Assembly: GCF_964355755.1 (NCBI RefSeq)
Contig: NC_092674.1
Location: forward strand, 62,001-126,000
Origin: Antedon mediterranea
Lineage: Eukaryota; Animalia; Echinodermata
Length of the DNA stretch: 64,000 nt
Direction: 5' to 3'
The notes under the pieces were generated by a model. That model saw only the letters and a program-made list of their open reading frames with translations. It was not told the DNA's origin and ran no database searches. Below, piece after piece: positions 4,115-55,557 of this stretch. A program made the position numbers and the translations under genes. The first letter of the stretch is position 1. The number at the start of each line of letters is the position of its first letter.

Positions 4115-5342
4115 TAATATAAAAATAACGCTTAAAAAAGAACGACGTTTCGACTCCATCATGGGGTCATTATCAAGTCCAATGAATAAAATTTAAAACA
4201 ACAACTAATTAAATAGCACAAGCCAAGGGTCAAAGTTTAAATAACAAAAGACCTATTGTCTTACATCCTGTCAAATGAAAAGCTTAGCTTTTACAGAGTC
4301 ACTTTTGTTTATTCAGACTAGGTTTTAATAAGTCTGATATATTTTATTTTGTTATTTTTTATTTTATTCAATCGAAACCAACAGCGATAATTACCGCCAC
4401 TAACAGGTTTGATACAAACAAAGCCAGGACTGTTTAAAGCACCTTGATTGGTCCTAACATTGATCAAGGGCTTCTCTCGTCCAGTGCCCACCTTGGCAAG
4501 AGGTCTGAGGCAGATACTAGATGCAGGGGCTGCCATAAGAGTCAGCAGTGCTGATTTCAAATGCCTAACGGGACCCCAGCTCCGTATACAGCACCCGTTA
4601 TTCCCAGATGGTCTCCCATCCAAGCTCTAACCAGGCACAACGTCGCTTAACTTCGCTGATCTGACGAGAACCGGTGTTTGAACGTGGTAAAGCCACATTT
4701 CATAGATAAGACATTCATGTTTTTGCATTTCCTAAGTATACTAAAAACATGAATTAATTTTACTTGGATTACCAATCATGTTATGATCCTTTAAATGCTG
4801 TCCTATTAAGCATCTACTATGTTCAACAATACGTTGGTAGGTGTCGACATGTACATCCAACATAACTTGCATCACACAAGTCACATTTAAATTTAAACAC
4901 AACACATTGTTGACTTATAATAGTTGGTTTCTTTTTCGACTTTCCTAATGTTATCTTTAACTTTTTTTAATTTTTTACCTCTATTGTTGAACATAGTAGA
5001 TGCTTAATAGGACAGCATTTAAAGGATCATAACATGATTGTTAATCCAAGTAAAATTAATTCATGTTTTAGTATACTTAGGAAATGCAAAAACAAATTTA
5101 TCTATGAAATGTTGTATATCAGACAATTAAAACCTAGTCTTAATAAAAAAAGTGACTCTGTAAAAGCTAAGCTTTTCACTTGACAGGATGTAAAGACAAT
5201 AGGTCTTTTGTTATTTAAACTTTGACCCTTGGCTTGTGCTATTTAATTAGTTGTTGTTTTAAATGTTATTCATTGGACTTGATAATGACTCCATGATGGA
5301 GTCGAAACGTCGTTCTTTTTTAAGCGTTATTTTTATATTATA
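4115..5342. mobile_element. Penelope-like retroelement 3' remnant with inverted pseudo-LTR (GIY-YIG endonuclease end + hammerhead-like motif)
   Basis: Minus strand about 4940-4830 encodes KPTIISQQCVVFKFKCDLCDASYVGCTCRHL. Plus arm 4983-5183 encodes IVEHSRCLIGQHLKDH...FSILRKCKNK..YEMLYIRQLKPSLNKKSDSVKAKLFT*. Segment 4982-5342 is the inverted copy of 4115-4341 + 4695-4831. Confidence 0.85.
4342..4694 (-). mobile_element. 5S rRNA-derived SINE (SINE3-type)
   Basis: Minus strand 4694-4585 reads GGCTTTACCACGTTCAAACACCGGTTCTCGTCAGATCAGCGAAGTTAAGCG...TTGGATGGGAGACCATCTGGGAATAACGGGTGCTGTA (5S with A and C boxes), followed by a ~215-nt unrelated body and an A-rich tail. Confidence 0.85.
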
Positions 5343-30294: not shown

Positions 30295-33200
30295 CAAAAG
30301 TTTCTACTCGACTTGACTTCAGACTATATTACTGTATGCCTAAAAGGCCTAACTACAATTCCGAAGTTGGTCTAGACATCGGCATTCTTTACAATGTTCT
30401 ATATTTGATAGCATCAGTCCCAATTAACCCCTTTAAGTGTTTATAAAAGTAAAGTCAGACATAGACTAGGACTTGTTAAAAAATGTTCATGTTTAATGTT
30501 CACTGCTGAGTTATAATCAATTGTGAGTTTTTAATAAATAAGGAAAAGGCAAAAAAAATGTGGTCAGATCCCAGTGGGCACAGAACATAATTTCAACGTT
30601 GAATCAACGTTGAAATATAGTTTATTTGTTGAAATCATGTTGTCAGCGTTTTTCAAATGTTGAATCAACGTTGAAATAACATTTTTTCCCTAACTATTTT
30701 TTTTACGTTTAGTAATAAACATTGAATCAACGTTGAAATAACATTTTCTTTTTAACTAGTAATTTATGTTAATTAATAAATGTTGGTTTAACGTTGAAAT
30801 AACATTGTCTTTCTAACAAATGTTTTACGTTAATTTATCAATGTTGATCCAACGTTGAAATAACATTGTTTTTAAAACAAATGTTTTACGTTAATTTATA
30901 AATGTTGATTCAACGTTGAAATAACATTGTATTTTTAACTAGAAATTTACGTTAATTTATCAATGTTGATCCAACGTTAAAATAACATTGTCCTTCTAAC
31001 TAGTAATTTACGTTAATTTATCAATGTTGATTTAACGTTGAAATAACATTGTCTTTCTAACTAGTAATTTACGTTAATTTGTCAATGTTGATCCAACGTT
31101 GAAATAACATTGTATTTTTAACTAGAAATTTACGTTAATTTATCAATGTTGATCCAACGTTAAAATCACATTGTATTTTTAACTCGAAATTTACGTTAAT
31201 TTATCAATGTTGATCCAAAGTTGAAATAACATTGTATTTTTAACTAGTAATTTACGTTAATTTATCAATGTTGATCCAACGTTGAAATAACATTGTATTT
31301 TTAACTAGTAATTTACGTTAATTTATCAATGTTGATCCAACGTTGAAATAACAATGTATTTTAAAGTAGAAATTTACGTTAATTTATTAATGTTGATCCA
31401 ACGTTGAAATAACATTGTATTTTTAACTAGAAATTTACGTTACTTTATGAATGTTAATCCAACGTTGAAATAACATTGTCTTTTTAACTAGTAATTTAAG
31501 TTAATTTATCATTGTTGATCCAACGTTGAAATAACATTGTCTTTCTAACTAGTAATTTACGTTAATTTATCAATGTTGATCCAACGTTAAAATCACATAG
31601 TATTTTTAACTAGAAATTTACGTTAATTTATCAATGTTGATCCAACGTTGAAATAACATTGTATTTTTAACTAGTAATTTACGTTAATTTATCAATGTTG
31701 ATCCAACGTTAAAATCACATAGTATTTTTAACTAGAAATTTACGTTAATTTATCAATGTTGATCCAACGTTGAAATAAAATTGTATTTTAACTAGTAATT
31801 TACGTTAATTTATCAATGTTGATCCAACCTTGAAATAACATTGTATTTTTAATTAATAATTTACGTTAATTTATCAATGTTGATCCAACGTTGAAATAAC
31901 ATTGTATTTTTAACTAGAAATTTACGTGAATTTATTAATGTTGATCCAACGTTGAAATAACATTGTATTTTTAACTAGAAATTTACGTTAATTTATTAAT
32001 GTTGATCCAACGTTGAAATAACATTGTCTTTCTAACTAGTAATTTACGTTAATTTATCAATGTTGATACAACGTTGAAATAACATTGTCTTTATATCTAG
32101 AAATTTACGTTAATTTATCAATGTTGATCCAACGTTGAAATAACATTGTATTTTTAACAAGAAATTTACATTAATTTATCAATGTTGATCCAACGTTGCA
32201 ATAACATTGTATTTTTAACTAGAAATTTACGTTAATTTATCAATGTTGATCCAACGTTGAAATAACATTGTCTTTCTAACTAGTAATTTACGTTAATTTA
32301 TCAATGTTGATCCAACGTTGAAATAACATTGTATTTCTAACTAGTAATTTTTTTCAAACAGTTATTATTTTTGTTTTTCAATGTTATTCCAACGTTATTT
32401 TAACGTTGAAATCCAGTTGTCATTTTCAAATGACATGTTTTCAACGTTGAAAAACTCTTGAAATTATGTTGTTTTTTCAAACAATTATTATTTTTTTTTT
32501 CAATGTTAATTAAACGTTAAATTAAAGATAAATTCTATTTAATACTTTGGTTAAAATGACATGTTTTTAACGTTTAATATTAAATAATTGTTTAAGTGCA
32601 TTGCCATTGATGTTTCAACGTTAAATTAACATTAGATTTCAGTTGGCGGTTTATTTTATCATCCTTTATTGTAAAACAAATGATTATTGGTTATTTAGGA
32701 ATTTTAGATTGGCAAATTGTCTCTGTATAATACAAAAATGTTCTAAGAAGTTGTTGAAAATTGAATGATCCTTTCATGCAAGATCAAATTTCATAAGATA
32801 CGTGCTTGTCATTGGTTAGTTTCGTTTTGATAAAATTTTGAAACTGGTGTCAGTAATTTCAGTTACTTCGACATAGGCTAGGCTAGGCCTACAGTAGTAG
32901 TGGTGTGTAGAAAAAAAAGGCTCATCATTGAAATTGTCAAATAAGTATGTTTTGAGGTAGGAAAACAATCTTTTTTATTTGTAATCTACTAATTTATAAG
33001 CTTTGAGCTTGACTATTTTACCCTTATCAAACAATAGCTAGCCTCTAGTCTAGGCCACACATGCATAGCTAGGCTATAGCCTGGTAGGCTAGGCCTAGGC
33101 CTATATAGGCTAGGCTAGTAGGCTAGGCAGGCTGCCAAACTGATGAACTGAATTCACTCACTAGGCCTAGTGGAAGCATTTAGTATTATGCATGTCAAGT

Positions 33201-33682
33201 GCAAACATTTGCCTTGCCAAGGATAACTACAGTTCTGTACTTATTATGGTTATAAAATGGTATGTATTAGGCCTAGGCTAGGCCTTTTAGTTCAATAATA
33301 CTTTCTTTATTTATCCAAAAGTATACATAAATATAACATTATAATATTTAATTAGTTGGCCTAGCCTAGCTAGCTTTCTGCTAGGCTGTCTACAGTAGCT
33401 GCTAATGCTATTATTAGTGTTAATAGTATACAAACACATGTTGCTTGCCTAGCCTAGGACGGCTATTTGTTAAACTTACTCGCTTTCTTTATTTCAGATT
33501 GTAGGCCTAGCTAAGGCCCTTAGGCCTATGCCTAGCTAGAGTACAAAATAATGAAGTACATGTAGGCCTATAATCTTTTCTATGTGAATCAAACGAGAAA
33601 AATCTAATGGATGATCAATATTTTTATATACAAAAGGTTGGTATTTATAGTTCTTAACTTTAATATTGAATTGAATAAATAT

Positions 33683-34672
33683 TACGCCGTGGTTAGGATT
33701 CCGGCACCGCAACTCAACTTCCCATCGTTAGGGAATCCGACACGCTATTGCGCATGCCCAGAGCGAAGTAATTATAGCTTGCACTAGTGCCACAGACCGC
33801 GCACCACATTACCCGAGAGTCGGAGTGTTAACTAGGGATGTACTGTGTAGCCAAAGATATCTTTGCTGTGGCCTAGTTAGTCGTCGCGCGGGGGAGAGAG
33901 CGATGGATGAAACTTGGCCTAGGCCATACATGAATTAATAATTATGCCACGCGTTAAAATAATTATTATGATATTGATAAGAATCAGCTTGCATATTTCA
34001 AGAAATTTACGAAAATGAATAGCGTAGCGTTGCGACACCGACTTCTCCCGAATAGGTCTGTTTTATTTTTTCACATCCGCACGGCGGCTGCTGTCAACAA
34101 ATCAACTTGTATACGATTGCATGATGTTATGTACAGTATAAATGCGTTATATGAAATCTTTTATTTTGTACTTGAAAAATCATAAAAATTAAAACTAGTC
34201 ATGCAATTATAATTCATAAATATATAAAGTTTATATATGAATGAAGCAAATTTAATTACGAAATAAATAGGCCCAATGGTCACATCTAGCTGGTAGGCCT
34301 ACTAGTATTAGTAGGCATGTAGGCCGGCTAGTTCGCCGTGGCGCAGCTATTAAAATGATCCATCGCTGTAAAGCTTGGTTCCCACTAGAACGTAACGCAA
34401 GGACGTAAACGCAACGCAAGCGTTTTAACCAATGACAAGCGAAGTTATAGACAGTTAGCAATCACAAGCGAATAAGCCATCGCTTGTGATTGGTCAATTT
34501 ACTTGCGTTGCGTTACGTCCTTGTGTTGCGTCGCTAGTGGGAACCACGCTTTGGTCTGTTGTAGACAAAAATAGAGTCGCCGAATACCTCGCTCTGGGCA
34601 TGCGAAATAGCGTGTCGGATTCCCTAACGCTGGGCAGTTGAGTTTCGTTGCCGGAATCCTAACCACGGCGTA
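33683..34672. mobile_element. Nested MITE with ~85-bp TIRs and 5-bp TSD
   Basis: TACGCCGTGGTTAGGATTCCGGCA... / ...TGCCGGAATCCTAACCACGGCGTA; AATAT on both sides. Confidence 0.85.
34370..34552. mobile_element. Small palindromic Harbinger-like MITE nested in the previous element
   Basis: AAAGCTTGGTTCCCACTAG... / ...CTAGTGGGAACCACGCTTT with ACGCA repeats. Confidence 0.75.
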
Positions 34673-37254
34673 AATATTAATACAGTGTTGCAATATTATT
34701 TACATAAATTGAATTGATTGCATAGTTTACGAGTAAGTGTGAAATGATGTTCTGAATTGAATTTTTGTTTATGTACAGTATGATTTTTGAACAATGTGTT
34801 AAAGATATAATTGAACTGAACAATTTTTTTTAAATGTTTTGTTGAATATGCCGTCACTATAGAGTTGTTCACTTTGACCAAAAATTAGATTTTAAAAAAT
34901 GCATTTGTACCTTAAAAGGGGGACAATTTAAACAAACAATTGGTTTTTGGTTAAATGTACTGTTTATTTTGTATTTTTGTTAAGTGAAATCTTTATTGTT
35001 TTTGTTTATTTTCTACGGCAAGTGAATATCTAAATTGTTAAAATTGCAAAATGGCAAGGTATTCAAAGTATGATTGTATTAATCTTCATTGTTCATGTTT
35101 TTTGGGGACAATAAATCTTTCAACAATTAATTTTTTACTGTATTATTTTTGTTTAAAACTACAGTAACGTGATTGAATTTGTTTCAGGTTTGGAAAAATA
35201 ATATTGCCACACTTTTGGAAAGCATAGGACAATGTCAACACAGGAATCGAGGCAACTGTTTATTGACTAATCGGAACAATGCAATTACAGTATTGTGTTA
35301 TTACCATCATTTGGACTTCTGCAACATTAGCACAAGGCACCTGTGACGTGTGTTGTATTTATTGTGTTTTACTGTAATCAGCCAATATTTATAGTTATTC
35401 AATCATGTTAGTTGGCAAACATATTACAAACTGGTTATTAGTATATTTTTTATACTTAACATTGGTACCTGAGAACTGTCAGTGAGGATGTACATTATTT
35501 GATTGTTGCTTGGATTTTGCCTGATGATTTGATAACACCTGATTAAATGTTATTTTATGTTTTTATAGAAATTAAAGATTAGTAAGATATACAGTATTTA
35601 TAAAATGTCTCTATTGATGGATTCTGCGATGTAACAGTAACTTTACTACTAACTACTTTAAAACCGTTGATTCAAATTGGATATAGTAATTCAACAAATC
35701 AAATTTCAACGTTAAATCTATGTTTAAATTTACGTTGATGCAAATTTTCATTTCAACTTAATTATTACGTTGTTTCAACGTTAATAATGTCAACATTGAA
35801 TCAACATTGATAATTTCAACGTAGACATTTTTACGTTGTTTCAACGTTGATAATCTATGTTGAATCAACGTTGACATTTTTGTTGAGGCAAACTTTCATT
35901 TTCAACGTTATTTCAACGTTACCTATTTTAACGTTGTTTCAACGTTGATAATTTCTATGTTGATTCAACGTTGACATTTACGTTGAGGCAAACTTTCATT
36001 TTCAACCATTTTTTCAACGTTATTTCAACGTTACCTATTTTAACGTTGTTTCAACGTTGATAATTTCTATGTTGATTCAACGTTGACATTTAAGTTGAGG
36101 CAAACTTTCATTTTCAACCATTTTTTCAACGTTATTTCAACGTTACTTATTTTAACGTTGTTTCAACGTTGATAGTTTCTATGTTGATTCAACGTTGACA
36201 TTTACGTTGAGGCAAACTTTCATTTTCAACCATTTTTTCAACGTTATTTCAACGTTACTTATTATAACGTTGTTTCAACGTTGATAATTTCTATGTTGAT
36301 TCAACGTTGACATTTACGTTGAGGCAAACTTTCATTTTCAACCACTTTTTCAACGTTATTTCAACGTTTGCAGATAACGTTGAATTAACGTTAATTCAAC
36401 CAATTTTTGCCCACTGGGATTGGACCGCAATTTAGCAAGGTATTATAAAATTGATATTTAGGTAAAGTATAACTTTTTTTGATTGCCTGAAAGAGATAAA
36501 AAGAGTTATAAAATAAAGAAGTATGTGGTAAATTATACGTACATTGCATGTTAAGGATTGAAAAACGTGTAAGAGTGTATACATAGAAAATATTTTGTTT
36601 TCTTCTTTTCCTTACTATTATATATAAAACGCAATGGTAGGAGTAAGATATCAGATGTACTGAAAGTTATTTAATGTCAGTTATATTGTATTGTATCATT
36701 ACATTACTCAATGCATTGTAAACGAACATTTTATTGATGAAGAAATAAAAGTGGGTCGATCCTACATAAGACAAAAAAAAACCTTCAAGAACGGAGACAA
36801 ACTTTACTACTATTTAAAACACATTTATTCTGGGGCGGTTCGGCCAACACAGCAGGCCAACCACCATAAATTTGTATTCATAACATTATTAGTACAATAC
36901 AATATCTTGCATGAAACGGATATTTCAAAATACAGTATAGTGGTACGGTAGAATAATAATCTTCTAATATAAACGATTAACAAAATCAAATTTAACAGTG
37001 CAATGTGTTGACCGCGATAATGACTAAAAATACCATTTTCCCCACTGCACATGCTCAAACTCATTTTCACAACAACGCAAGACATACCAAACTACGATGA
37101 GATATAAATTCTCTTCTAAACACGTAACAAGAGAATGAATTCCCTTTTTTACATTAAATTAAATTGAGGGCGCTAAACATAAAATTTTAAACATCAAAGA
37201 TACAGGTGGCTAAAGCCAAACAAAAAATGTCCTCTTCCTGCCTCAGCACCGTAA

Positions 37255-38799: not shown

Positions 38800-38910
38800 T
38801 GACGTCACTGTCAAACAGACTTGTTTAGACCTCTCTTTGAGCTATTTGTGGCGCTGACTTTGTCTTTAGTTTCGCTATATATACAGCGGGAGCTTCATGA
38901 AGCTTCAATT
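38800..38910 (+). promoter_or_regulatory. Putative Pol II promoter of the ligase gene (CRE + TATA-like box)
   Basis: Perfect TGACGTCA at 38800-38807, TATATATA at 38876-38883, and a pyrimidine-rich Inr-like TCAATTT about 30 bp downstream, in a locally CpG-richer segment. Confidence 0.45.
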
Positions 38911-39141
38911 TTCTTTTGTAGTTTGTTTTCTAGTTTTCATCATAATATTAATATACAAGGTGTTTTATCATACCAGGTGGATACTGAAGTCTGATTTCAC
39001 GTACTACCATACATATAGGTAGGCTCTGGACTGTTCTCTGTAGAGGCCTACTAACACACACAAGTACAGCAGTACTAACTACGTTGATTACTTACTACCC
39101 GTACTAAGTTATCGATTCACTGGCCTAAAATCGTCTAAAAT

Positions 39142-41747
39142 ATGCCGAGAAAACAAACAACAAAACGCACTAAAACTGCGGCTAATAAAGGAAAAGGTGA
39201 TGAGAGCCAGAATGATTCAGCCAAGAAGATGAAATCAGATGAAGGTTAGTTAGTAAAATAAACAAATTATATGTGGTTAGTAATAATAATATTTTGAATT
39301 GATTCTTCAGTTGCTTTTATTTTAATACAAACAATGGCATGATACTGGATCTAGGCAAAAGTTAGACTAACTATTATTGCTCCATGATCTTGGAAAATAG
39401 GCGGGTGGCGCATAAAAAAACATACCGATATAATATATAACTCTACGAGAGAGATACGTACTGTAAGAGATACTATTTTTCTGTTTATATAATAATGTAT
39501 GTATTTATATTGAAATATTGAGTTGCCACTGCATTTCCACCTTTCGCATGCCACCACATAAACCCATGTTTAATATTTTAGATTCAGTTTTGGAAGCTCA
39601 GGATGAATCCCAAGATACACAATCTACTAATTCCTTTACAAGTGCTGTCCAGATCACTGAAAACGATACAAAAATACCTGGTGGGGAAAACAAGGTTTCT
39701 TATGAAGACCAAACGTACTTAAAGAGAACTGGTAAACCTGGAACACTTGTCATGCTGGCTCAAAAATACACAGATGAGTAAGTATTGATAATAATAACGC
39801 TTTTATTCTCTAGGAAGAAATGCAATTTACTATAATGGCAATCACAATTAGTCTGTTAAGTGAGTAAGAGTCTTCATTACAAGTCAGTACCTCAACACAA
39901 CACTATATTACACTATAATGGCAATCACAATTAGTCTGTTAAGCGAGTAAGAGTCTTCATTACAAGTCAGTACCTCAACACAACACTATATTACACTATA
40001 ATGGCAATCACAATTAGTCTGTTTTGATATAGAATGAATTAAATAAGGGTAATAATACAAGTTTTTCATAAATGGCAACTTTTAAAATAATGAATTGGGG
40101 TAATATTGGGTTATCTAAAGTTTCCAACAAATTCCTAGAATTTTAATATAGGGGTATTGCCACTAAGGTTTTTAATTCCACAATTTCACCACCAAAAATC
40201 AGGTGCCTTATTGGCCTTATTTCTTTTTATTTAGTACTGAACCTAAGGGCTGGTGGATGAGTGAGAAGTTGGATGGATTACGTGCATTCTGGAATGGAAA
40301 TAATTTTTACTCCAGACTTGGAAATAAATTTGATGCTCCTAAGTATTTCACAAAAGTAAGATAAATGTATTTTACAATAAACTCAAATATTAGTTAAAAT
40401 TTAACATATTTTTTTCTTGACCTAAAAATACAGCTCACAATAACATTGATATGTCTACTCTTTCTTTCCTAGAATTTTCCAAAAGACATACAACTTGATG
40501 GAGAGCTGTTTCTGGATAGAGGACAATTTCCCAAGGCAGTCAGTATTGTAAAAACTCATGGTGTTGACAAAGGATGGAAAAATCTCAAATTTGAGGTACA
40601 AATATAAAATATACATATACAAGAACTGTCAATTGTCAAAAAAAATCTGATTGTAATATTACTAGTTTGATTGTTCGATCCTATTTAATAAAAACTGTAT
40701 TATACGTAACTTGTAGATCTTTGATGCACCTAATATTGAAGCCGCGTTTGAAGACAGAATTGAAGCTATAGCAGATTACTTTGACAAAAACAGGTTTGTA
40801 TTAGTTTCAATGTGGTGGTCAAAAGTTTCTTTTTCCGTAATTATTTATACTGGTATTTTGATACTTTGTATGTTTATTTTCAGCAATCCATATGTTCATG
40901 TTTTGGAACATGTTTTGTGCAAAGGCAAAGAACATGTTGATGAGCAACTGAAGCTGGTTGAGGCAGTGAACGGAGAAGGCCTTATGATACGAGAAGCCGG
41001 CTCAGAGTATGAATTTGGGGTCCGCTCAAGTACTTTGTTGAAAATAAAATCCTTCTATGATGCCGAGGTAAAGCAACTTTACATAATTAAAATCAATCCT
41101 ACCATAATAATCCATTAATTAAATAACAAAACAACAAATGTTGACTTTTTTTAACAATCTAATAATGACTTTATTCTATTTAGGCCATTGTTATTGGCTA
41201 TGAACCTGGGAAAGGCCGTAACACAGGTGTAGTGGGCGCTCTTCGGTGTAAAATGGAAAGTGGAATTGAATTTTCTGTTGGGTCAGGGTAAGTTCATTTT
41301 GAGTTAGTCAGAATACTTTAATTAATACGTCTAGTATAATTATGTAATATTATCGTAATGCTTGATTTCCACAATGCCAAATAATCCATCCACTATTTCA
41401 CCAATGTTGAATTTTTATCTCAATTTAGATTAAATGATGCTGATCGCCGCAAACCACCAAAGAAAGGAAGTATTATAACTTACAGATTCCAAGAATTGAC
41501 AAAATCGAAAAAACCAAGATTTCCAACATTTGTAGGTCAGTATATTAAATATCGAATTTCTTTCAGTGTCTTGATTTAGAAACAAAATGATTTGACAGTA
41601 TACTTTCTGAATTATGAGTGGTTATTGAATTTTGTAAAATAAAATTGATTAATAGGTAATTTTTAAAATGTTTTATTAATTGCAGGTGTTCGTATTGATG
41701 CTGACAAACCTAAGGATGCTGTACTGCCAACTGGCAAGACTGTATAA
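39142..41747 (+). CDS. Minimal ATP-dependent DNA ligase (Lig E / Chlorella virus / kinetoplast-ligase-like; NTase + OB domains), 358 aa, 9 exons
   Basis: Exons 39142-39244, 39582-39777, 40235-40355, 40473-40595, 40717-40793, 40884-41067, 41184-41287, 41429-41535, 41686-41747. All are GT-AG, total 1077 nt, no internal stop. Motifs: I GWWMSEKLDGLRA, Ia YSRLGN, III LDGELF, IIIa FEIFDAP, IV GEGLMIR, V LLKIK, OB-fold GKGRNTGVVGAL and FSVGSG, VI KPRFPTFVGVR. AATAAA at about 41985. Confidence 0.95.
39828..40023. repeat. ~83-bp tandem duplication in ligase intron 2
   Basis: ACTATAATGGCAATCACAATTAGTCTGTT... repeated about 2.3 times. Confidence 0.85.
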
Positions 41748-42589
41748 AGACTAGCAAAGCCATAGTTTTGAGGATCAAGTATTAATTTATAAACAACATT
41801 GTAATGGAGTATGTAACAACTATTTAAACGTACAATTTTTAATTACTTGCATGTGTTATTATGATTCTAAATTATGTTATACTCGAGCCAAATGATTGCA
41901 ATGAAATAGACATTCATTAATGTTTTGGAAATGTATATGTTTTGAATTGATGGTTTTTACTTTTTATATTTCATGATAATTCATAATAAATGCATGATAG
42001 ATTACTGTATTATTTATCTTTATTAGATGTTACTAAAAGATGTCTGAATTGGGACCTAATTTACAAGATGAATAGAGTAGACATTAGATAAACATTTTCT
42101 GTTTATTCACTTAATAAATCTTTTAATATTTGCATTTTAATGAAATGTCAAACATTGATATTTATCTGTATTTATTTGTAAGACAATTTTAGGTGTAGCT
42201 CAATAATCGACTAAGACAGCAATAAAGAATATATCAATTAAATTCTTAGCCTATAATGTTCAATAGAAAATTAGTGCAATTTCCTTATATGGAGTGTTTT
42301 AGAATGTGTAATTGCAAGCAATTGAAGTATCAAATATTTGTATAATTTAAATTTGTTTTAAACTGTAGACAGCTGGAATGGTGGTTGAATCATGTTTTAT
42401 TTTTTAGTGCGGGTGTAATAAATCTAGATTATCAGAAATGTTGTTTTAGATTTATTTTTAATTAAATACTATACAATGTATTGAGAAATACTGTATTTGT
42501 TATTGGTTGCTCAGTAAGTTAAGAAGCAGGGAGTTGTAAAATAACTCCCTGGTTAAAGTGTGTGTAACTCTGTCGTAGTTGTTGTACAG

Positions 42590-42807: not shown

Positions 42808-45800
42808 ATGGTGTATAATACAGTGGATAAGACTGGATTTAAGGTAAATATAAGTATGATTTTATGTGGACATCTGCCAAGCTATCTACTGGGCTAGTTT
42901 GGCCTTTCTGTTCTAGTCTAATACAACAACTACTACTAGGCCCTAGGCCTACTACATTCTAGGCCTAGGCCCCTAGTAGTAGTACTAGCTATATGGGGCC
43001 TACAGGTATTATAGACGTTTCGCCCCAGGGATGGTTATGCCCGGGACGTTTCGGCCCAGGTTTATTATTATTAATAATAATTTCCATGATAGCAGATAGA
43101 AATTCCGTAAAAACAATTTAATATGCAAACAACAGCAGTAACCAAACAGCATTACCTCAGTCAGTCACAGTTTTATAAATGAATTAAATATTATTAATAA
43201 ACAAGAAGAGAATGAATAATGTCGAAATGAATGATGATGATGAATGATAATTCTAATTTAAATATTTAACTGTTTTATACAGTAATACTTGGCCATTTAT
43301 TTGCACTTTATTAACGTACTGTACTTGATTTAAACACAGTAAAGTTACAGTACGTTAGTATTTAGAAAGAAAAGGGGCGCTAGTTCCGTTTCGCACCTGT
43401 CGTATATTTCGACTCAAAATTGGTTAAGTAACTTCATCGTGAGTACCACACCTTAGAATTAGGCCTCAAAAATACTTTTACGAAGGAGATCACACAAAAA
43501 GTAAAAAATAAATCCTTTAAATTGATGAATTTACAGACGTGTTTCTCGCACATCGGTTCGTGAATTTCGCATACTCCATGTTCAATGTTGTTGTTTCTAT
43601 GGAGCGCCAAAAGAGCAATCATAATAGAGGGCTATATACTCAGTAAATTACGTATATTTAATGCATTTATTGATGAAAATTACGTTAAATTTTATCATAT
43701 TTTGTCAATGTCAATGCAACAAAACTATTACTGTTGATACTGTACATGGTTTTTGCAGGAACTTTTAGGAATGAAAATCGACAAATTCATCATCATATTA
43801 CATGTACTGTAGGGAGGGGTATACCTGATCTAAATAATAATAATATTCCTCTTAGTCTTAGTCTCAGGCATAGGCCTAGGGTTGGTTGCTATTTGAAAAC
43901 AGCAAATTATTAGCAGTAAAATGTTACAGCATTTTTATTGACAAAATATATTAAATTTAAACGTGTATTTCAATAATAAAAGCATTAAAAGAAGACGCAT
44001 TCCACTGAGTTTTTAACCATCTGTTGTTGTTGCTCTTTTGGCGCTCCATAGAAACGAAAATATTGAACTTCGAGTATGCTAAATTCGCGAACGGTATGCG
44101 AGAAACATGTCTGTAAAATCATCAATTTAAGGGTTTATTTGTTACTTTTTATGTGATTATTCTTCATAAAAGTACTTATGAGGCCCAATTTTAAGGTGTG
44201 GTATTCACAATAAGTTGCTTAACAATTTGGAGTCAAAAGGAAGTCGAAATAAAAACAGGTACGAAACGGAACTAGTGCCAGAAAAGGGTTGATGTATTAC
44301 AAACATTTAAAATATTTAATAAGTATGAGAAAATAAATGATGAGAAGCTCTTTGCAAAATCTAATTATAAACAAACTAGAGGACACAGTTTCAAGGTCTC
44401 TAAACCCAAGATAAAATTAAACGTTAGAAAGAGTGCATATTCGGTAAGAGTGGTAGATGATTGGAACTCATTACCCAGTCATGTAGTAGAGGCACAATCG
44501 GTCAATGAGTTCAAATCGGGCATTGCTAAATATTGTTCTGACCACCACATCAAGTTTCGCCCGTACGTTAATGAAGAGTTTGCAGTTATGACGATGGAGG
44601 GACAAATGAGCTAGTTCTCAATGTCCGAAGTTCAAGGTAAATTCAAGTAGGCCTAATCTATATATTTGATGTTTTTTTAGTGGTCTATTGAAGATAAACC
44701 AGTAACCATAGCAAAATGGGATGGAGCAGCAGTAAAGAATTCTCTAGATGATGCTGTTAGAAAGGTATATTTTCAAAATTGATCTGTCCACATTTTAAGC
44801 ATACTCTCTGTTTATTTTGTATGTAAAAATTAAGTTTGGTTTCTATCTATTGCAGATTATGAATGAGAAATATAAGTATGAAGAGAACTTTAAAATGATG
44901 GATACACGGTTGTGGATATGTTCCATCTCATGTTTATTTGCAATGTTTGCACTTGGATGGGATTTTTTTTACCCATTTCCAGCATCTAGGAGTGTACTAT
45001 TCTTATGTGTTGTATCATATCCTTTCTAATGTAACAGGAATTAATGTATTTTGTATTTAATTAGTATACTCAAATATACAGTATGAAACAAACTTAGTTG
45101 GATAAACAACAACAACACATTCCCATTACAATTTTCATCACACATTCCCAACACATAACAATTTTGATTACACATTTTGATTGATTGATTGATTGAATTT
45201 ATTTGATGCTCAACATTAAAATAACAAACAGACAAAAGACAAAATAACGAGCATCAGGAACACCCATTAGGCCGGAAAAACCAGCCCATTTCCAATGGGG
45301 TCCAAATTGCACATAACAAACAAGAGAAAATACAACATTAATAAAACTATAAATATATAAATATACATTAAAATAAAGCCCAGTAAAACAGAAAAATTAA
45401 AATGAGAAAAATTGCACGTAATCAAGACCATTATAGTTATCAAAATTATTCTAAATATAAAAAATTGCGTTCAAAATGTTTTTTAATATGAGATTTGAAG
45501 GTAGTTAAGTTGGAAATTAATTTTAAGTTTGATGGAAGAGCGTTCCAGTCTTTGATAGCAGAGAAGAAAAAAGTAGAATGAGACTGTTTATTTCCTTTAA
45601 GTAGAGGTAAAACCAGATTAACATTACGTTGGCGTGTGTTATGTGTGTGGATTGTGGATGTCCGTGAGAAATGTTCAGATAGATATGGAGCTGCATTGTT
45701 ATTGACAATTTTATGAACATTACAAAGCCTGAACAAATTCTATCACACATTTTCTACTGCTTGTTTCCTTAACTATTTGCTTACCTATTTTATAATGATG

Positions 45801-51784: not shown

Positions 51785-53517
51785 CTCTAGTACATAACAC
51801 AGGGTTTCATGTGTGAGCATCTTGGATAATTATTTAAAGCAGGGAGTTGTTGTTATTTTAACAACTCCCTGTTTAAAGCATTACGTAATAAAAAATAACA
51901 CATGTATTGACACTATAACCAGGGAGTTGTTATTAATAACAACTCCCTGCTATAACATAGCTTGTGCAACCTATCCACTCTATTGTGTATTTTCCATGTA
52001 TACCTATTTTCGAATTTCGCCATAATCTTCCTTAATAAAGTTATGTAAAATGTAAGAATAAATCCCAACATTTTTTAGAGCCGACCGACTTCATAATTTC
52101 CTGATGCTCGTTTTAGATAATAATTATAATGTTTCCTTTAAACGTCGGAAACTAATGTTAATAGTGCGCATGATCAGTCTGGAACAAAGGCTATTATCTA
52201 CGACCTTACGTTTTTCTGGTGTATAAATCCTAATCAACATAATCAACGCAGTAACGGGAATTCAATGCGTAGATATTAATTACAGTATGCTACGGATGAA
52301 ACCATTATACGATCTAATAAACAACAAGTTACTGGCATCGTACTCCTAAAACATCGTAAAACCGAAGATTGTTCACATTTAAAGACGAGGAGCATATGCA
52401 TATTATTGTATCAATATAATATAATATCCAAAAAAGCGGTAAGAAAAAGAATTTGTATTTACTTAATTTGAATATTATCTATCATTAATTACCAATAGAA
52501 CTGCAGTGCCGCTTGACGGAATTGATAAGACGGTTTTAGCGTTATGTCTCGTGTCTTAGACCAAATAACGTTACTAAAAATATCAAGTTGAATAGGAATT
52601 AAACAGTACGTCAAATTTTCTGCTGGCAGCCTGGTCAGTTTTGGTCCCCGACTACATAATTACACATCTTAACATAATCGTTGATACAATTATGTTAATC
52701 AGTTTTTCCGATTTTAATGTAATTTTTTGTTTTCTTTGTACTATTTTTAAGTTACAATGATTTTCAAATAATGTTCATACGTATCGGAAAGTGATCCTGG
52801 TGGTATATATAATTGATTTTAAAATTGTAGATCACGTCAGGTTAGTAGTATAGAGGCCTGCCGTGAGCCGATCGAAGGGAATCGATGACAACAGCAGTGT
52901 ATTTGAAAATAAACATGAGAAAACAATGGTTCGACAGATGTTTCAACATGAAACTAAGTTCACAAACAATAATGGAAGGTAATCCTATTATCAATATTAT
53001 TAATTATTATGTCAATACATTCGGTAACATGCTGCAGATTGATACAAGTCAAGTCAATTTTCAAAATTAATTCCGATTATGTTTGTACATCTTTATATCA
53101 GTCGCGAGGTGGTAACTTTTTAATCATGGATAAGAAGTTAAAATATTTACATTTATTTACCGTTAATAATATACATTATGTAAGCCTATCAATAACGTGA
53201 GACGACTGTAAAAAGCTATAGGCCTATATTTTTCAAATGAGTAAGAGAGTCCTAACTCAACACACATTAGAGGTAAGATATTAATAATTATTAACATCAC
53301 CTGAAACAACAGGTTTCACGTACGTATCAATTGATAAATAATGCAGGTAAAGACAAGTTAATATTTAATTATTAAAAATAATATATCCTGACTCGTGAGC
53401 ACATCATTGAGTTTATTGAGATATAAACATTTATAATCTTTTGTATTGTTATGAAATAATAATCACATGGTGAGATTGACTGTAAAAGTCAATAGGAATG
53501 TGTAGGGTGATGCTGTT

Positions 53518-55325
53518 GTATAATATTCAGCCTCAGTATAGTATTCAGTCGAAGTATAATATTCAGCCTCAGTATAGTATTCAGTCGAAGTATAATATTC
53601 AGCCTCAGTATAGTATTCAGATCAGTCGAAGTATAATATTCAGCCTCAGTATAGTATTCAGTCGAAGTATAATATTCAGCCTCAGTATAGTATTCAGTCG
53701 AAGTATAATATTCAGCCTCAGTATAGTATTCAGTCGAAGTATAATATTCAGCCTCAGTATAGTATTCAGATCAGTCGAAGTATAATATTCAGCCTCAGTA
53801 TAGTATTCAGTCGAAGTATAATATTCAGCCTCAGTATAGTATTCAGTCGAAGTATAATATTCAGCCTCAGTATAGTATTCAGTCGAAGTATAATATTCAG
53901 CCTCAGTATAGTATTCAGTCGAAGTATAATATTCAGCCTCAGTATAGTATTCAGTCGAAGTATAATATTCAGCCTCAGTATAGTATTCAGTCGAAGTATA
54001 ATATTCAGCCTCAGTATAGTATTCAGTCGAAGTATAATATTCAGCCTCAGTATAGTATTCAGTCGAAGTATAATATTCAGCCTCAGTATAGTATTCAGTC
54101 GAAGTATAATATTCAGCCTCAGTATAGTATTCAGTCGAAGTATAATATTCAGCCTCAGTATAGTATTCAGTCGAAGTATAATATTCAGCCTCAGTATAGT
54201 ATTCAGTCGAAGTATAATATTCAGCCTCAGTATAGTATTCAGTCGAAGTATAATATTCAGCCTCAGTATAGTATTCAGTCGAAGTATAATATTCAGCCTC
54301 AGTATAGTATTCAGATCAGTCGAAGTATAATATTCAGTCTCAGTATAGTATTCAGTCGAAGTATAATATTCAGCCTCAGTATAGTATTCAGTCGAAGTAT
54401 AATATTCAGCCTCAGTATAGTATTCAGTCGAAGTATAATATTCAGCCTCAGTATAGTATTCAGTCGAAGTATAATATTCAGCCTCAGTATAGTATTCAGT
54501 CGAAGTATAATATTCAGCCTCAGTATAGTATTCAGTCGAAGTATAATATTCAGCCTCAGTATAGTATTCAGTCGAAGTATAATATTCAGTCTCAGTATAG
54601 TATTCAGTCGAAGTATAATATTCAGCCTCAGTATAGTATTCAGTCGAAGTATAATATTCAGCCTCAGTATAGTATTCAGTCGAAGTATAATATTCAGCCT
54701 CAGTATAGTATTCAGTCGAAGTATAATATTCAGCCTCAGTATAGTATTCAGTCGAAGTATAATATTCAGCCTCAGTATAGTATTCAGTCGAAGTATAATA
54801 TTCAGCCTCAGTATAGTATTCAGTCGAAGTATAATATTCAGCCTCAGTATAGTATTCAGTCGAAGTATAATATTCAGCCTCAGTATAGTATTCAGATCAG
54901 TCGAAGTATAATATTCAGTCTCAGTATAGTATTCAGTCGAAGTATAATATTCAGCCTCAGTATAGTATTCAGTCGAAGTATAATATTCAGCCTCAGTATA
55001 GTATTCAGTCGAAGTATAATATTCAGCCTCAGTATAGTATTCAGTCGAAGTATAATATTCAGCCTCAGTATAGTATTCAGTCGAAGTATAATATTCAGCC
55101 TCAGTATAGTATTCAGTCGAAGTATAATATTCAGCCTCAGTATAGTATTCAGTCGAAGTATAATATTCAGCCTCAGTATAGTATTCAGTCGAAGTATAAT
55201 ATTCAGCCTCAGTATAGTATTCAGATCAGTCGAAGTATAATATTCAGCCTCAGTATAGTATTCAGTCGAAGTATAATATTCAGTCTCAGTATAGTATTCA
55301 GTCTCAGTATAGTATTCAGTCGAAG
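53518..55325. repeat. 36-bp satellite (dimer of two related 18-mers), about 50 copies
   Basis: Unit GTCGAAGTATAATATTCA-GCCTCAGTATAGTATTCA. Confidence 0.97.
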
Positions 55326-55557
55326 TTCTCAATGGAAGTTATGAGATCCGCAGGTTAGTATCATTTTGGTTGATTCACTATATTTTACGATGTTAGGTTT
55401 AATATCATTAAATGAATGTTCAGATTTCAGAATTGTTTTAATTTTGTGCAAATATTAAGACAATACCATATTTTCAACATACCATAGCTAAAAGTATAAA
55501 CAAAATTATAGATCGTTTTCGTCAAAATCATTTCTAAAGAAATGAAGGTATAATAAT

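What the first reader, a model, noticed from the sequence alone, without database searches (positions are those of the whole stretch)
39142..41747. A fourth, non-canonical DNA ligase in an animal genome: intron-rich Lig E/Chlorella-virus-type minimal ATP-dependent ligase
Seen: nine GT-AG exons splice into an intact 358-aa ORF with all nucleotidyltransferase motifs (KxDGxR as SEKLDGLR, SR, DGEL, FD, EGLM, LLKIK, PRFP). It has only NTase + OB domains and sits between two ordinary animal genes. Established: metazoan LIG1/3/4 carry a large N-terminal DNA-binding domain, plus BRCT/ZnF in LIG3/4. The SEKLDG-x-RA-x-W-x-G / GSG / PRFP pattern is that of the minimal nick-sealing ligases of proteobacteria (Lig E), large DNA viruses and kinetoplasts. 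Inference: this is a domesticated, anciently transferred or patchily retained gene that gives this lineage an uncharacterised ligation or repair route. Chlorella-virus ligase also seals DNA nicks splinted by RNA, so that activity is worth testing. Similar genes may already be auto-annotated in other invertebrates; I cannot check this.
Basis: partly seen in the sequence, partly recalled or inferred. Interest (0 to 1): 0.9.

Follow-up and report, generated by a model that had tools for sequence, protein, structure and literature searches.

The report
Stripped-down Ligase E in a crinoid
This is a real, spliced feather-star gene for Ligase E, an extra DNA-joining enzyme already reported in molluscs, acorn worms and rotifers; it likely seals DNA nicks, was likely inherited from early animals rather than recently borrowed from microbes, and lacks the zinc fingers that its mollusc and acorn-worm relatives carry.

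Summary
Nine GT-AG exons give an intact 358-aa protein, identical to NCBI's 'DNA ligase-like' of the crinoid Antedon mediterranea, and one assembled contig skips all eight introns. It is Lig E type (PRK09125, PF14743, lysine-fork motif, no latch), not Chlorella-virus type and not LIG1/3/4.

The headline is in print: animal Lig E/'LigK' was reported in 2018 and 2023 (bdelloids, Lottia, Biomphalaria, Aplysia, Capitella, Saccoglossus), and the bdelloid enzyme seals nicks.

Two additions here. (1) The animal copies look vertically inherited: they group together, echinoderms sit with hemichordates, and 6 of 7 core introns match an unnamed intron-rich relative in position and phase. Their nearest kin are fungal, choanoflagellate and amoebozoan proteins; trees joining animals to the sampled bacteria or viruses were rejected (p 0.044, 0.015, 0.0003). 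(2) 'Minimal' is likely secondary: 3 of 3 echinoderm proteins lack the PBZ and SWIM-type fingers found in 45 and 44 of 46 other animal proteins.

Deep branches are weak, and activity is untested. Verdict: a new variant of a known kind, of moderate interest.

The parts
38816..39141 (+). 5' untranslated leader, with an in-frame TAA two codons before the ATG
   Evidence: X1 contig begins at 38816 and runs unbroken into exon 1; stop at 39136-39138. A contig cannot show the true start.
39142..39244 (+). coding exon 1 (aa 1-34): basic, disordered; possible nuclear localisation signal (inferred); no signal peptide
   Evidence: pLDDT under 50 for aa 1-51; hydropathy maximum -0.71
39582..39777 (+). coding exon 2 (aa 35-100): acidic linker, a stretch shared with the other crinoid, start of the nucleotidyltransferase domain
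   Evidence: 59% over 39 aa with Anneissia
39829..40023 (.). 83-nt tandem repeat inside intron 2 (multi-copy in the genome)
40235..40355 (+). coding exon 3 (aa 100-140): motif I KxDGxR, adenylated lysine predicted at K111 (40266-40268), motif Ia SR
40473..40595 (+). coding exon 4 (aa 141-181): motif III DGEL
40717..40793 (+). coding exon 5 (aa 182-207): motif IIIa FD
40884..41067 (+). coding exon 6 (aa 207-268): motif IV EGLM, motif V LLKIK
41184..41287 (+). coding exon 7 (aa 269-303): OB-2 domain, Lig E lysine-fork motif (G277-K-G-R280) and GSG motif
41429..41535 (+). coding exon 8 (aa 303-339): OB-2 domain, PRFP
41686..41747 (+). coding exon 9 (aa 339-358 and stop)
41748..42220 (+). 3' untranslated region as far as the X1 contig reaches
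42808..44764 (+). neighbour, not part of the ligase: first two coding exons of SPCS2 (42808-42843, 44681-44764)

Best explanation
This is a spliced, intact crinoid gene for a Lig E-family two-domain ligase that likely seals DNA nicks with ATP in the nucleus, was likely inherited from at least the common ancestor of molluscs and echinoderms, and has likely lost the PBZ and SWIM-type zinc fingers that its orthologues keep. Shown: gene structure, splicing, family membership, intact catalytic motifs, and absence of the fingers. Inferred mechanism: K111 is adenylated by ATP, AMP passes to the 5' phosphate of a nick, and the 3' OH attacks. The NTase and OB-2 domains form an open C-shaped clamp held by the K278/R280 fork, with no DNA-binding domain or latch. 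Inferred role: a back-up to LIG3/LIG1 in single-strand-break and base-excision repair. The mollusc and hemichordate forms would be recruited to damage by poly(ADP-ribose) through PBZ; the echinoderm form would reach nicks without it, guided by a basic tail.
For: Family: PRK09125 307 bits against a cut-off of 200. PF14743 OB domain. The best solved relatives are the three Lig E entries by sequence and by fold (6gdr, TM 0.90 of target, rmsd 2.1 A, 37% identity; Chlorella ligase 22-24%, human LIG1/3/4 15-20%). Catalytic residues K111, D113, G114, R116, R127, D149, E151, F183, D184, E238, K260 and K262 are invariant in 49 of 49 animal-clade proteins. Inheritance: animal clade 100/95 in the careful tree, echinoderms 97/93, echinoderms + hemichordates + one unnamed protein 95/91; 49 rows at 99 in the 500-row FastTree. 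The animals lie in a 35-row, bacteria-free group with fungi, choanoflagellates, amoebozoans, euglenozoans, an oomycete and a rhizarian (95/96). AU tests reject animals + SWIM-type bacteria (p 0.015), marginally animals + canonical Lig E (p 0.044) and animals + viral contigs (p 0.0003); they do not reject animals + choanoflagellates (p 0.35). Of the crinoid's 7 core introns, 6 are shared in position and phase with unnamed contig L196, a 62% identical relative (hypergeometric P 1.6e-13, or 1.9e-7 if only a tenth of sites can take introns). Loss: PBZ and SWIM-type in 0 of 3 echinoderms, but in 45 and 44 of 46 other animal proteins, 3 and 4 of 4 choanoflagellates, 5 and 5 of 5 amoebozoans. Neither domain is found in six frames of the window, and an in-frame stop precedes the ATG in the spliced contig. 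Function by analogy: bdelloid Lig E is nuclear, damage-induced and seals nicks (PMC10665377).
Against: No activity, localisation or induction data exist for this protein. Under the mixture model (quick search, 44 rows) the animal clade is not resolved and the eukaryote group has only 83; the careful tree's bootstrap had not settled. Inside the eukaryote group the tree does not follow the species tree (fungi need 4 changes, amoebozoans 4). Other eukaryote proteins (Actinomortierella, Hondaea) fall outside the group, and Luapelamoeba fell among bacteria in FastTree. Animals + the Mortierella-type group is not rejected (p 0.29). No bdelloid, kinetoplastid or LIG1/3/4 sequence was in my trees, and bacteria were only the best 80 of 585 scored loci plus 30 of 34 Pseudomonadota matches. 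The named animal hits in two top-120 lists are only molluscs, hemichordates, crinoids and an ophiuroid, so the depth of origin in animals rests on unnamed rows. By my count on the alignment, two residues that matter for DNA binding in Psychromonas Lig E (K176, K212; PMC6144786) are serine here (S263, S299); they also vary in canonical Lig E (K in 5 and 10 of 30). The Anneissia and Amphiura N-termini rest on database gene models only. The splicing evidence is one contig of one study.
Confidence: 0.75

Rival explanations
1. The gene entered animals by one old transfer from a microbial eukaryote (fungus or amoeba) into the stem of bilaterians, or of all animals, gained introns there and was then inherited. 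It was not inherited from the unicellular ancestors of animals.
For: In the careful tree the animals' sister is a fungal group (91/94), not the choanoflagellates. No cnidarian, sponge or chordate is named among the listed hits. PMC6264785 reports none in vertebrates, arthropods or nematodes.
Against: Animals + choanoflagellates is not rejected. Choanoflagellate proteins have the same PBZ + SWIM-type + ligase order. The published list includes Salpingoeca, Capsaspora and Thecamonas. L196 branches at the base of the animal rows.
Confidence: 0.2
2. Separate transfers from bacteria or viruses into different animal groups, the crinoid copy coming from a short Lig E or viral ligase.
For: It has only two domains, like bacterial Lig E, and passes the bacterial PRK09125 cut-off. 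Relatives of 40-53% identity are common in Myxococcota, Planctomycetota and viral contigs. PMC10665377 proposes independent transfers among eukaryotes.
Against: It nests with hemichordate and mollusc copies. AU tests reject union with bacteria or viruses, although these tested all animals together. Six introns are shared with L196. It is closer to animals (55-81%) than to any prokaryote locus (at most 53%).
Confidence: 0.03
3. The protein has changed job after losing its fingers: it acts outside nuclear repair, for example in mitochondria as kinetoplastid ligases do, or on RNA-containing nicks.
For: Both recruitment modules are gone in 3 of 3 echinoderms. Hemichordate homologues give weak RNA_ligase Pfam hits. 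Kinetoplastid ligase K shares the two core domains (PMC10665377).
Against: The N-terminus is basic then acidic, with no hydrophobic or obvious targeting stretch. The crinoid protein has no RNA_ligase hit. The DNA-binding OB-2 domain is intact, and there is no Chlorella-type latch.
Confidence: 0.12
4. A contaminant contig, or a decaying pseudogene.
For: It lost N-terminal domains, and its end branch is somewhat longer under the mixture model.
Against: Eight spliced introns; GC like its flanks; single-copy DNA contigs run on into SPCS2; a second crinoid has an 81% identical core; all catalytic residues are intact.
Confidence: 0.02

Closest known systems
Animal Lig E ('LigK') of Lottia, Biomphalaria, Aplysia, Capitella and Saccoglossus (PMC6264785; PMC10665377)
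   Same: Same PF01068 + PF14743 core at 55-62% identity; same branch of the tree for the mollusc and hemichordate proteins I held.
   Different: Those I held carry N-terminal PBZ fingers and a SWIM-type finger, in a chiton also BRCT; the crinoid and ophiuroid proteins have none. Capitella was not among my named hits.
Bdelloid AvLigE and Mortierella MvLigE (PMC10665377)
   Same: Eukaryotic Lig E core; the only animal member shown to ligate nicks and to be damage-induced.
   Different: Core at the N-terminus with C-terminal PBZ. Reported as distinct from other animal copies (PMC6264785). My proxy group (Actinomortierella and two unnamed proteins) lies apart in the trees, but union with animals is not rejected. 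Bdelloid sequences were not in my set.
Canonical proteobacterial Lig E (8u6x, 4d05, 6gdr; PRK09125)
   Same: Two-domain fold, OB-2, lysine-fork and GSG motifs, 37-42% identity.
   Different: Most have a periplasmic signal peptide (PMC6144786, PMC8455567); the crinoid protein has a charged, disordered N-terminus, introns and no leader.
Leaderless NT-OB2 ligases of Myxococcota/Planctomycetota, often with WGR (PMC7470946, PMC8455567)
   Same: Closest prokaryote relatives, up to 53% identity; they share the SWIM-type finger with most eukaryote members (77 of 80 loci).
   Different: No PBZ (0 of 80); the crinoid protein has neither WGR nor SWIM; union with animals is rejected (p 0.015).
Chlorella virus DNA ligase (1fvi, 2q2t)
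   Same: Minimal NTase + OB-2 layout.
   Different: Only 22-24% identity, E about 1e-9. It has a 29-residue latch where this protein has the short fork motif.
Eukaryotic LIG1, LIG3, LIG4
   Same: Nucleotidyltransferase motifs and predicted three-step chemistry.
   Different: No helical DNA-binding domain, BRCT or PARP-type finger; a different OB family; 15-20% identity in fold alignments; no chain named as human ligase I, III or IV among the 17 sequence hits.

Membership tests
Lig E family in the broad sense (PMC10665377: PF01068 + PF14743) | ATP-dependent ligase domain PF01068 | tested here: met
   40 bits, cut-off 26.2, aa 92-262
Lig E family in the broad sense (PMC10665377: PF01068 + PF14743) | OB-2 domain PF14743 | tested here: met
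   97.9 bits, cut-off 28, aa 276-341
Lig E family in the broad sense (PMC10665377: PF01068 + PF14743) | Passes NCBIfam PRK09125; closest solved structures are Lig E | tested here: met
   307 bits against 200
Lig E family in the broad sense (PMC10665377: PF01068 + PF14743) | [quoted passage not shown] | tested here: met
   G277-K278-G279-R280 aligns without insertion; G301-S302-G303 kept, but the lysine before it is S299
Lig E family in the broad sense (PMC10665377: PF01068 + PF14743) | ATP-dependent nick sealing | not testable with these tools
   All catalytic residues present; no assay
Canonical periplasmic Lig E of proteobacteria | N-terminal signal peptide | tested here: not met
   Maximum hydropathy of the first 40 aa is -0.71; no signal-peptide predictor was run
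Canonical periplasmic Lig E of proteobacteria | Groups with proteobacterial Lig E | tested here: not met
   Separate in all trees; union of animals with them p-AU 0.044, marginal
Animal Lig E/'LigK' orthologue group (molluscs, hemichordates) | Branches with the mollusc and hemichordate proteins | tested here: met
   100/95, 99; unresolved under the mixture model
Animal Lig E/'LigK' orthologue group (molluscs, hemichordates) | Shared intron positions | tested here: met
   6 of 7 core introns shared with unnamed contig L196; for bivalves only inferred, from where exon-sized fragments end
Animal Lig E/'LigK' orthologue group (molluscs, hemichordates) | N-terminal PBZ fingers (typical of the group, not part of the published family definition) and SWIM-type finger | tested here: not met
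   Absent from the protein and from six frames of the window; this is the variant feature
Chlorella-virus-type ligase | DNA-encircling latch in the OB domain | tested here: not met
   No insertion at that loop
Chlorella-virus-type ligase | Seals DNA nicks splinted by RNA (property recalled, not from a call) | not testable with these tools
   Needs an assay
LIG1/LIG3/LIG4 | N-terminal helical DNA-binding domain and PF04679-type OB | tested here: not met
   Neither found; residues 1-51 predicted disordered
Kinetoplastid ligase K | Groups with trypanosomatid kDNA ligases; mitochondrial targeting | not tested
   No kinetoplastid sequence was in my set; PMC10665377 finds ligase K more divergent and possibly the kinetoplastid Lig E

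The most novel reading that the evidence does not exclude
Lig E is not a string of stress-driven gene transfers but an ancient fourth eukaryotic DNA ligase. It would be ancestrally wired to poly(ADP-ribose) signalling (PBZ, BRCT, FHA, plus a SWIM-type finger shared with Myxococcota/Planctomycetota), inherited by animals from their unicellular ancestors and lost in vertebrates, arthropods, nematodes and model yeasts. Echinoderms would then have stripped it back to a bare, PAR-independent nick sealer: a natural deletion experiment on how a repair ligase finds damage.
Probability: 0.4. Interest if true: 0.62.

Novelty: new variant of a known kind. Interest (0 to 1): 0.36.

Why it matters
The textbook count of three animal DNA ligases comes from model species. 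Lig E in some invertebrates is known, but it has been read mainly as horizontal transfer for stress tolerance. Shared introns and a species-like tree among animals argue instead for old inheritance with many losses, so molluscs, hemichordates and some echinoderms would have a repair ligase that humans, flies and worms lack. The echinoderm form without PBZ and SWIM fingers gives a direct test of what those modules do. As a small eukaryotic ligase it is easy to express and assay. The gene itself is already annotated and the family is in print, so the surprise is moderate.

Tried and rejected
Whole genome: none is held for this window, so I could not check for LIG1/3/4, PARP partners or a second copy in this species.

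My first exon boundaries were off by one or two bases and gave a broken frame; they were corrected from the splice sites.

Hidden upstream PBZ/SWIM exon: tblastn with 11 homologous N-termini gave no hit under E 0.3 except the Anneissia stretch in exon 2, and two purpose-built HMMs gave 0 hits at E under 1 in six frames.

Vestige of the SWIM region in aa 50-90: best E 0.12, so not supported.

Cultured phages: 407 records match, one at 42% (uncultured phage), the other listed ones at about 30%; no close phage donor.

Microsynteny: SPCS2 and the spectrin exon have no hit in L196 or L197.

MCF2L identity: the PDB search was blank and the ESM Atlas gave no answer. The VIA structure search also gave no answer.

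The careful 116-row tree did not finish; only its quick version is cited.

No holder run is on record as RNA; X1 is treated as RNA only because its contig skips the introns. dN/dS was not computed, as no second crinoid coding sequence could be fetched.

Rfam finds only a 5S rRNA in the window. Earlier scan findings: none by sequence or by words.
Full report
1. The observation. A search with exon 6 returned a 358-aa protein that is letter for letter this product, named by NCBI 'DNA ligase-like [Antedon mediterranea]', and a close relative in Anneissia japonica. The window is therefore from a crinoid, and the gene is already auto-annotated. One contig of run X1 skips 8 of 8 introns at the predicted sites and extends from 38816 to 42220; two DNA-like runs of one other sample show no such joints. 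DNA contigs at single-copy depth run from upstream of the gene into the first exon of SPCS2, broken at a tandem repeat in intron 2. SPCS2 is confirmed by Pfam and splicing. The upstream gene's name was not confirmed.

2. Family. Pfam gives PF01068 and PF14743 only. Of 13 NCBIfam hits only PRK09125 passes its cut-off. Of 17 PDB sequence matches the three best are Lig E (E 1e-58, 7e-56, 2e-49); Chlorella virus ligase follows at 1e-9. An AlphaFold2 model (mean pLDDT 79; aa 1-51 under 50) matches DNA-bound Lig E 6gdr at TM 0.90 and rmsd 2.1 A. In Lig E a short lysine-bearing motif replaces the 29-residue latch of the Chlorella enzyme (PMC6144786, passages); the crinoid protein has that motif and no insertion. 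It is Lig E type, not Chlorella type, and has no signal peptide.

3. What is in print. [quoted passage not shown] They name Capitella, Lottia, Aplysia and Salpingoeca, and find the bdelloid copies distinct from other animals'. Nicolas et al. 2023 (PMC10665377; parts 1-5 of 9 of the text, part 2 of 3 of supplement 1, and a term search of 4 supplementary files; figures not seen) rename it LigE. They show that the bdelloid enzyme is nuclear, radiation-induced, seals nicks and protects human cells. They list copies in Saccoglossus, Lottia, Biomphalaria, Capitella, Salpingoeca, Capsaspora, Thecamonas, Acanthamoeba, ciliates, oomycetes and fungi, and favour horizontal transfers. PMC8455567 and PMC7470946 (passages) note that leaderless Myxococcales/Planctomycetia ligases, many with WGR, cluster with fungal ones. 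A 2026 preprint (10.64898/2026.04.30.722046; passages; supplements closed) places bdelloid Ligase E expression in somatic tissue after radiation. I found no paper on echinoderm Lig E or on an ancestral eukaryotic origin: 'echinoderm', 'vertical' and 'intron' have 0 hits in the 2023 supplements, and searches showed none in the listings I saw (15 of 38, 30 of 78). The library lacks most subscription journals, and the trees in the supplements are pictures I could not see.

4. Distribution. A search with the core found 2601 proteins (best 120 listed). An animal profile found 5553 at E 1e-20 (best 120 listed). The 50% representative library holds 1032 at E 1e-30 (best 150 listed, unnamed). Named members are two crinoids, an ophiuroid, three hemichordates, many gastropods and bivalves, a chiton, four choanoflagellates, five amoebozoans, two euglenozoans, an oomycete, a labyrinthulid, a chlorarachniophyte and many fungi. 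The closest prokaryote loci are mostly Myxococcota and Planctomycetota at up to 53% (best 80 of 585). Canonical short Lig E was found in 34 of 251 genomes of a gammaproteobacterium's phylum, and viral contigs reach 48% (best 80 of 288). These lists are top hits, so missing animal groups are not shown absent.

5. Trees. Of 558 sequences, 19 were dropped for short coverage and 39 more as near-duplicates. In the 500-row FastTree, 49 animal or animal-like rows form one branch (99) inside a 224-row branch (96) that holds no prokaryote-genome locus and one viral contig. In a 61-row IQ-TREE run (LG+G4; bootstrap not fully settled) animals have 100/95, echinoderms 97/93, echinoderms with hemichordates and one unnamed protein 95/91, and a 35-row eukaryote-only group 95/96. 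AU tests on that set gave: animals + choanoflagellates p 0.35; + canonical Lig E 0.044 and + SWIM-type bacteria 0.015; + viral contigs 0.0003 and + Mortierella-type proteins 0.29. Against this reading, a quick mixture-model tree of 44 rows leaves the animals unresolved and gives the eukaryote group 83. The eukaryote group is also not species-like inside, and a second set of eukaryote proteins lies outside it. Inheritance within animals is therefore well supported; an origin at the root of eukaryotes is plausible but not shown.

6. Introns. A metagenome scan with an unnamed bivalve-like homologue confirmed 2 of 37 candidate stretches. L196 is an unnamed, intron-rich gene whose exons match PBZ, BRCT, SWIM-type and ligase regions. 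Its spliced core is 62% identical to the crinoid's and branches at the base of the animal rows (SH-aLRT 89). Six of the crinoid's seven core introns recur in it at the same codon and phase; the seventh is two codons away, and L196 has one extra. Exon-sized fragments in two bivalve-like clusters end where crinoid introns 2 and 6 lie (inferred from the fragments, not from DNA). Independent transfers from intronless donors would not give this.

7. The variant feature. With profiles built from 21 animal proteins, PBZ is found in 45 of 46 and the SWIM-type finger in 44 of 46 non-echinoderm animal-clade proteins, and neither in 3 of 3 echinoderm proteins (21 of the 46 built the profiles). The exceptions are a second, short Mactra copy and one unnamed protein. 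The label 'SWIM-type' comes from UniRef names, not from a Pfam hit. Choanoflagellates (3 and 4 of 4), amoebozoans (5 and 5 of 5), fungi (21 and 79 of 86) and the closest bacteria (0 and 77 of 80) show that both modules are older than echinoderms. In Antedon the absence is real: the spliced contig has a stop before the ATG, and the window holds no trace of either domain. One loss in early echinoderms is the simplest account (inference).

8. How it likely works. From established ligase chemistry and the conserved residues: adenylation of K111, transfer of AMP to the nick's 5' phosphate, then sealing, with partial encirclement of DNA as in 6gdr. By analogy with the bdelloid enzyme and the PBZ/BRCT/WGR company that the family keeps, its job would be single-strand-break and base-excision repair beside LIG3 and LIG1. 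PBZ binds poly(ADP-ribose) (PMC10665377), so the echinoderm enzyme would have to find nicks without that signal. Its basic N-terminus may serve for nuclear import (inferred; no predictor run). None of this is tested for the crinoid protein.

9. Verdict. Real, and correctly spotted from raw sequence, but a member of a family already reported in animals. New here are the echinoderm members, their loss of both finger types, and the intron and tree evidence for inheritance rather than repeated transfer. Novelty: new variant of a known kind. Interest 0.36; 0.62 if the 'ancient fourth eukaryotic ligase' reading (probability 0.4) holds.

Noticed in passing
window 32900-35300, + strand: Run X1 has spliced contigs here (GT-AG joints 32954-33496 and 33634-35186) with no long open frame seen; the DNA is multi-copy by depth. 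Possibly a non-coding or repeat-derived transcript lying between the ligase and the upstream gene.
   Followed up: partly
window 33682-34673: An element with 89-nt terminal inverted repeats (93% complementary), holding a smaller inverted-repeat element at 34408-34514 of very high copy depth; looks like nested non-autonomous DNA transposons.
   Followed up: partly
window 4583-4700, - strand: A lone 5S rRNA match (60 bits), among the exon-like frames of the upstream minus-strand gene.
   Followed up: no
window 44276-44614 (+) and 45446-45739 (-): Frames in SPCS2 introns that resemble the C-terminal end of LINE-type reverse-transcriptase proteins (recalled resemblance; no significant Pfam hit).
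   Followed up: partly
window 53486-55344: A long, low-complexity tandem array with open frames on both strands.
   Followed up: no
proteins P0082, P0131, P0178: P0082 has this ligase core fused to X-family DNA polymerase (pol beta) domains, and P0131 branches with it; P0178 has a C-terminus that looks similar by eye. A polymerase-ligase fusion would be a one-protein gap-filling and sealing enzyme.
   Followed up: no
proteins P0005, P0126, P0154: Fungal homologues with duplicated modules: two OB-2 domains in P0005, two SWIM-type fingers in P0126 and P0154.
   Followed up: no
viral contigs L100, L112, L116, L119 and others: 14 of 80 viral-contig homologues carry the SWIM-type finger, several on contigs of 190-530 kb; L082, from a giant-virus bin, branches among eukaryote proteins.
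   Followed up: partly
G005 (genome of locus L018): Labilithrix luteola holds three matches to this ligase, two of them shorter and more distant.
   Followed up: no
protein P0246: A UniRef entry filed under an amphipod and named '3-ketoacyl-CoA synthase 17' is a ligase with C-terminal PBZ that branches with the Mortierella-type group; likely mis-named, and perhaps from a contaminant.
   Followed up: partly
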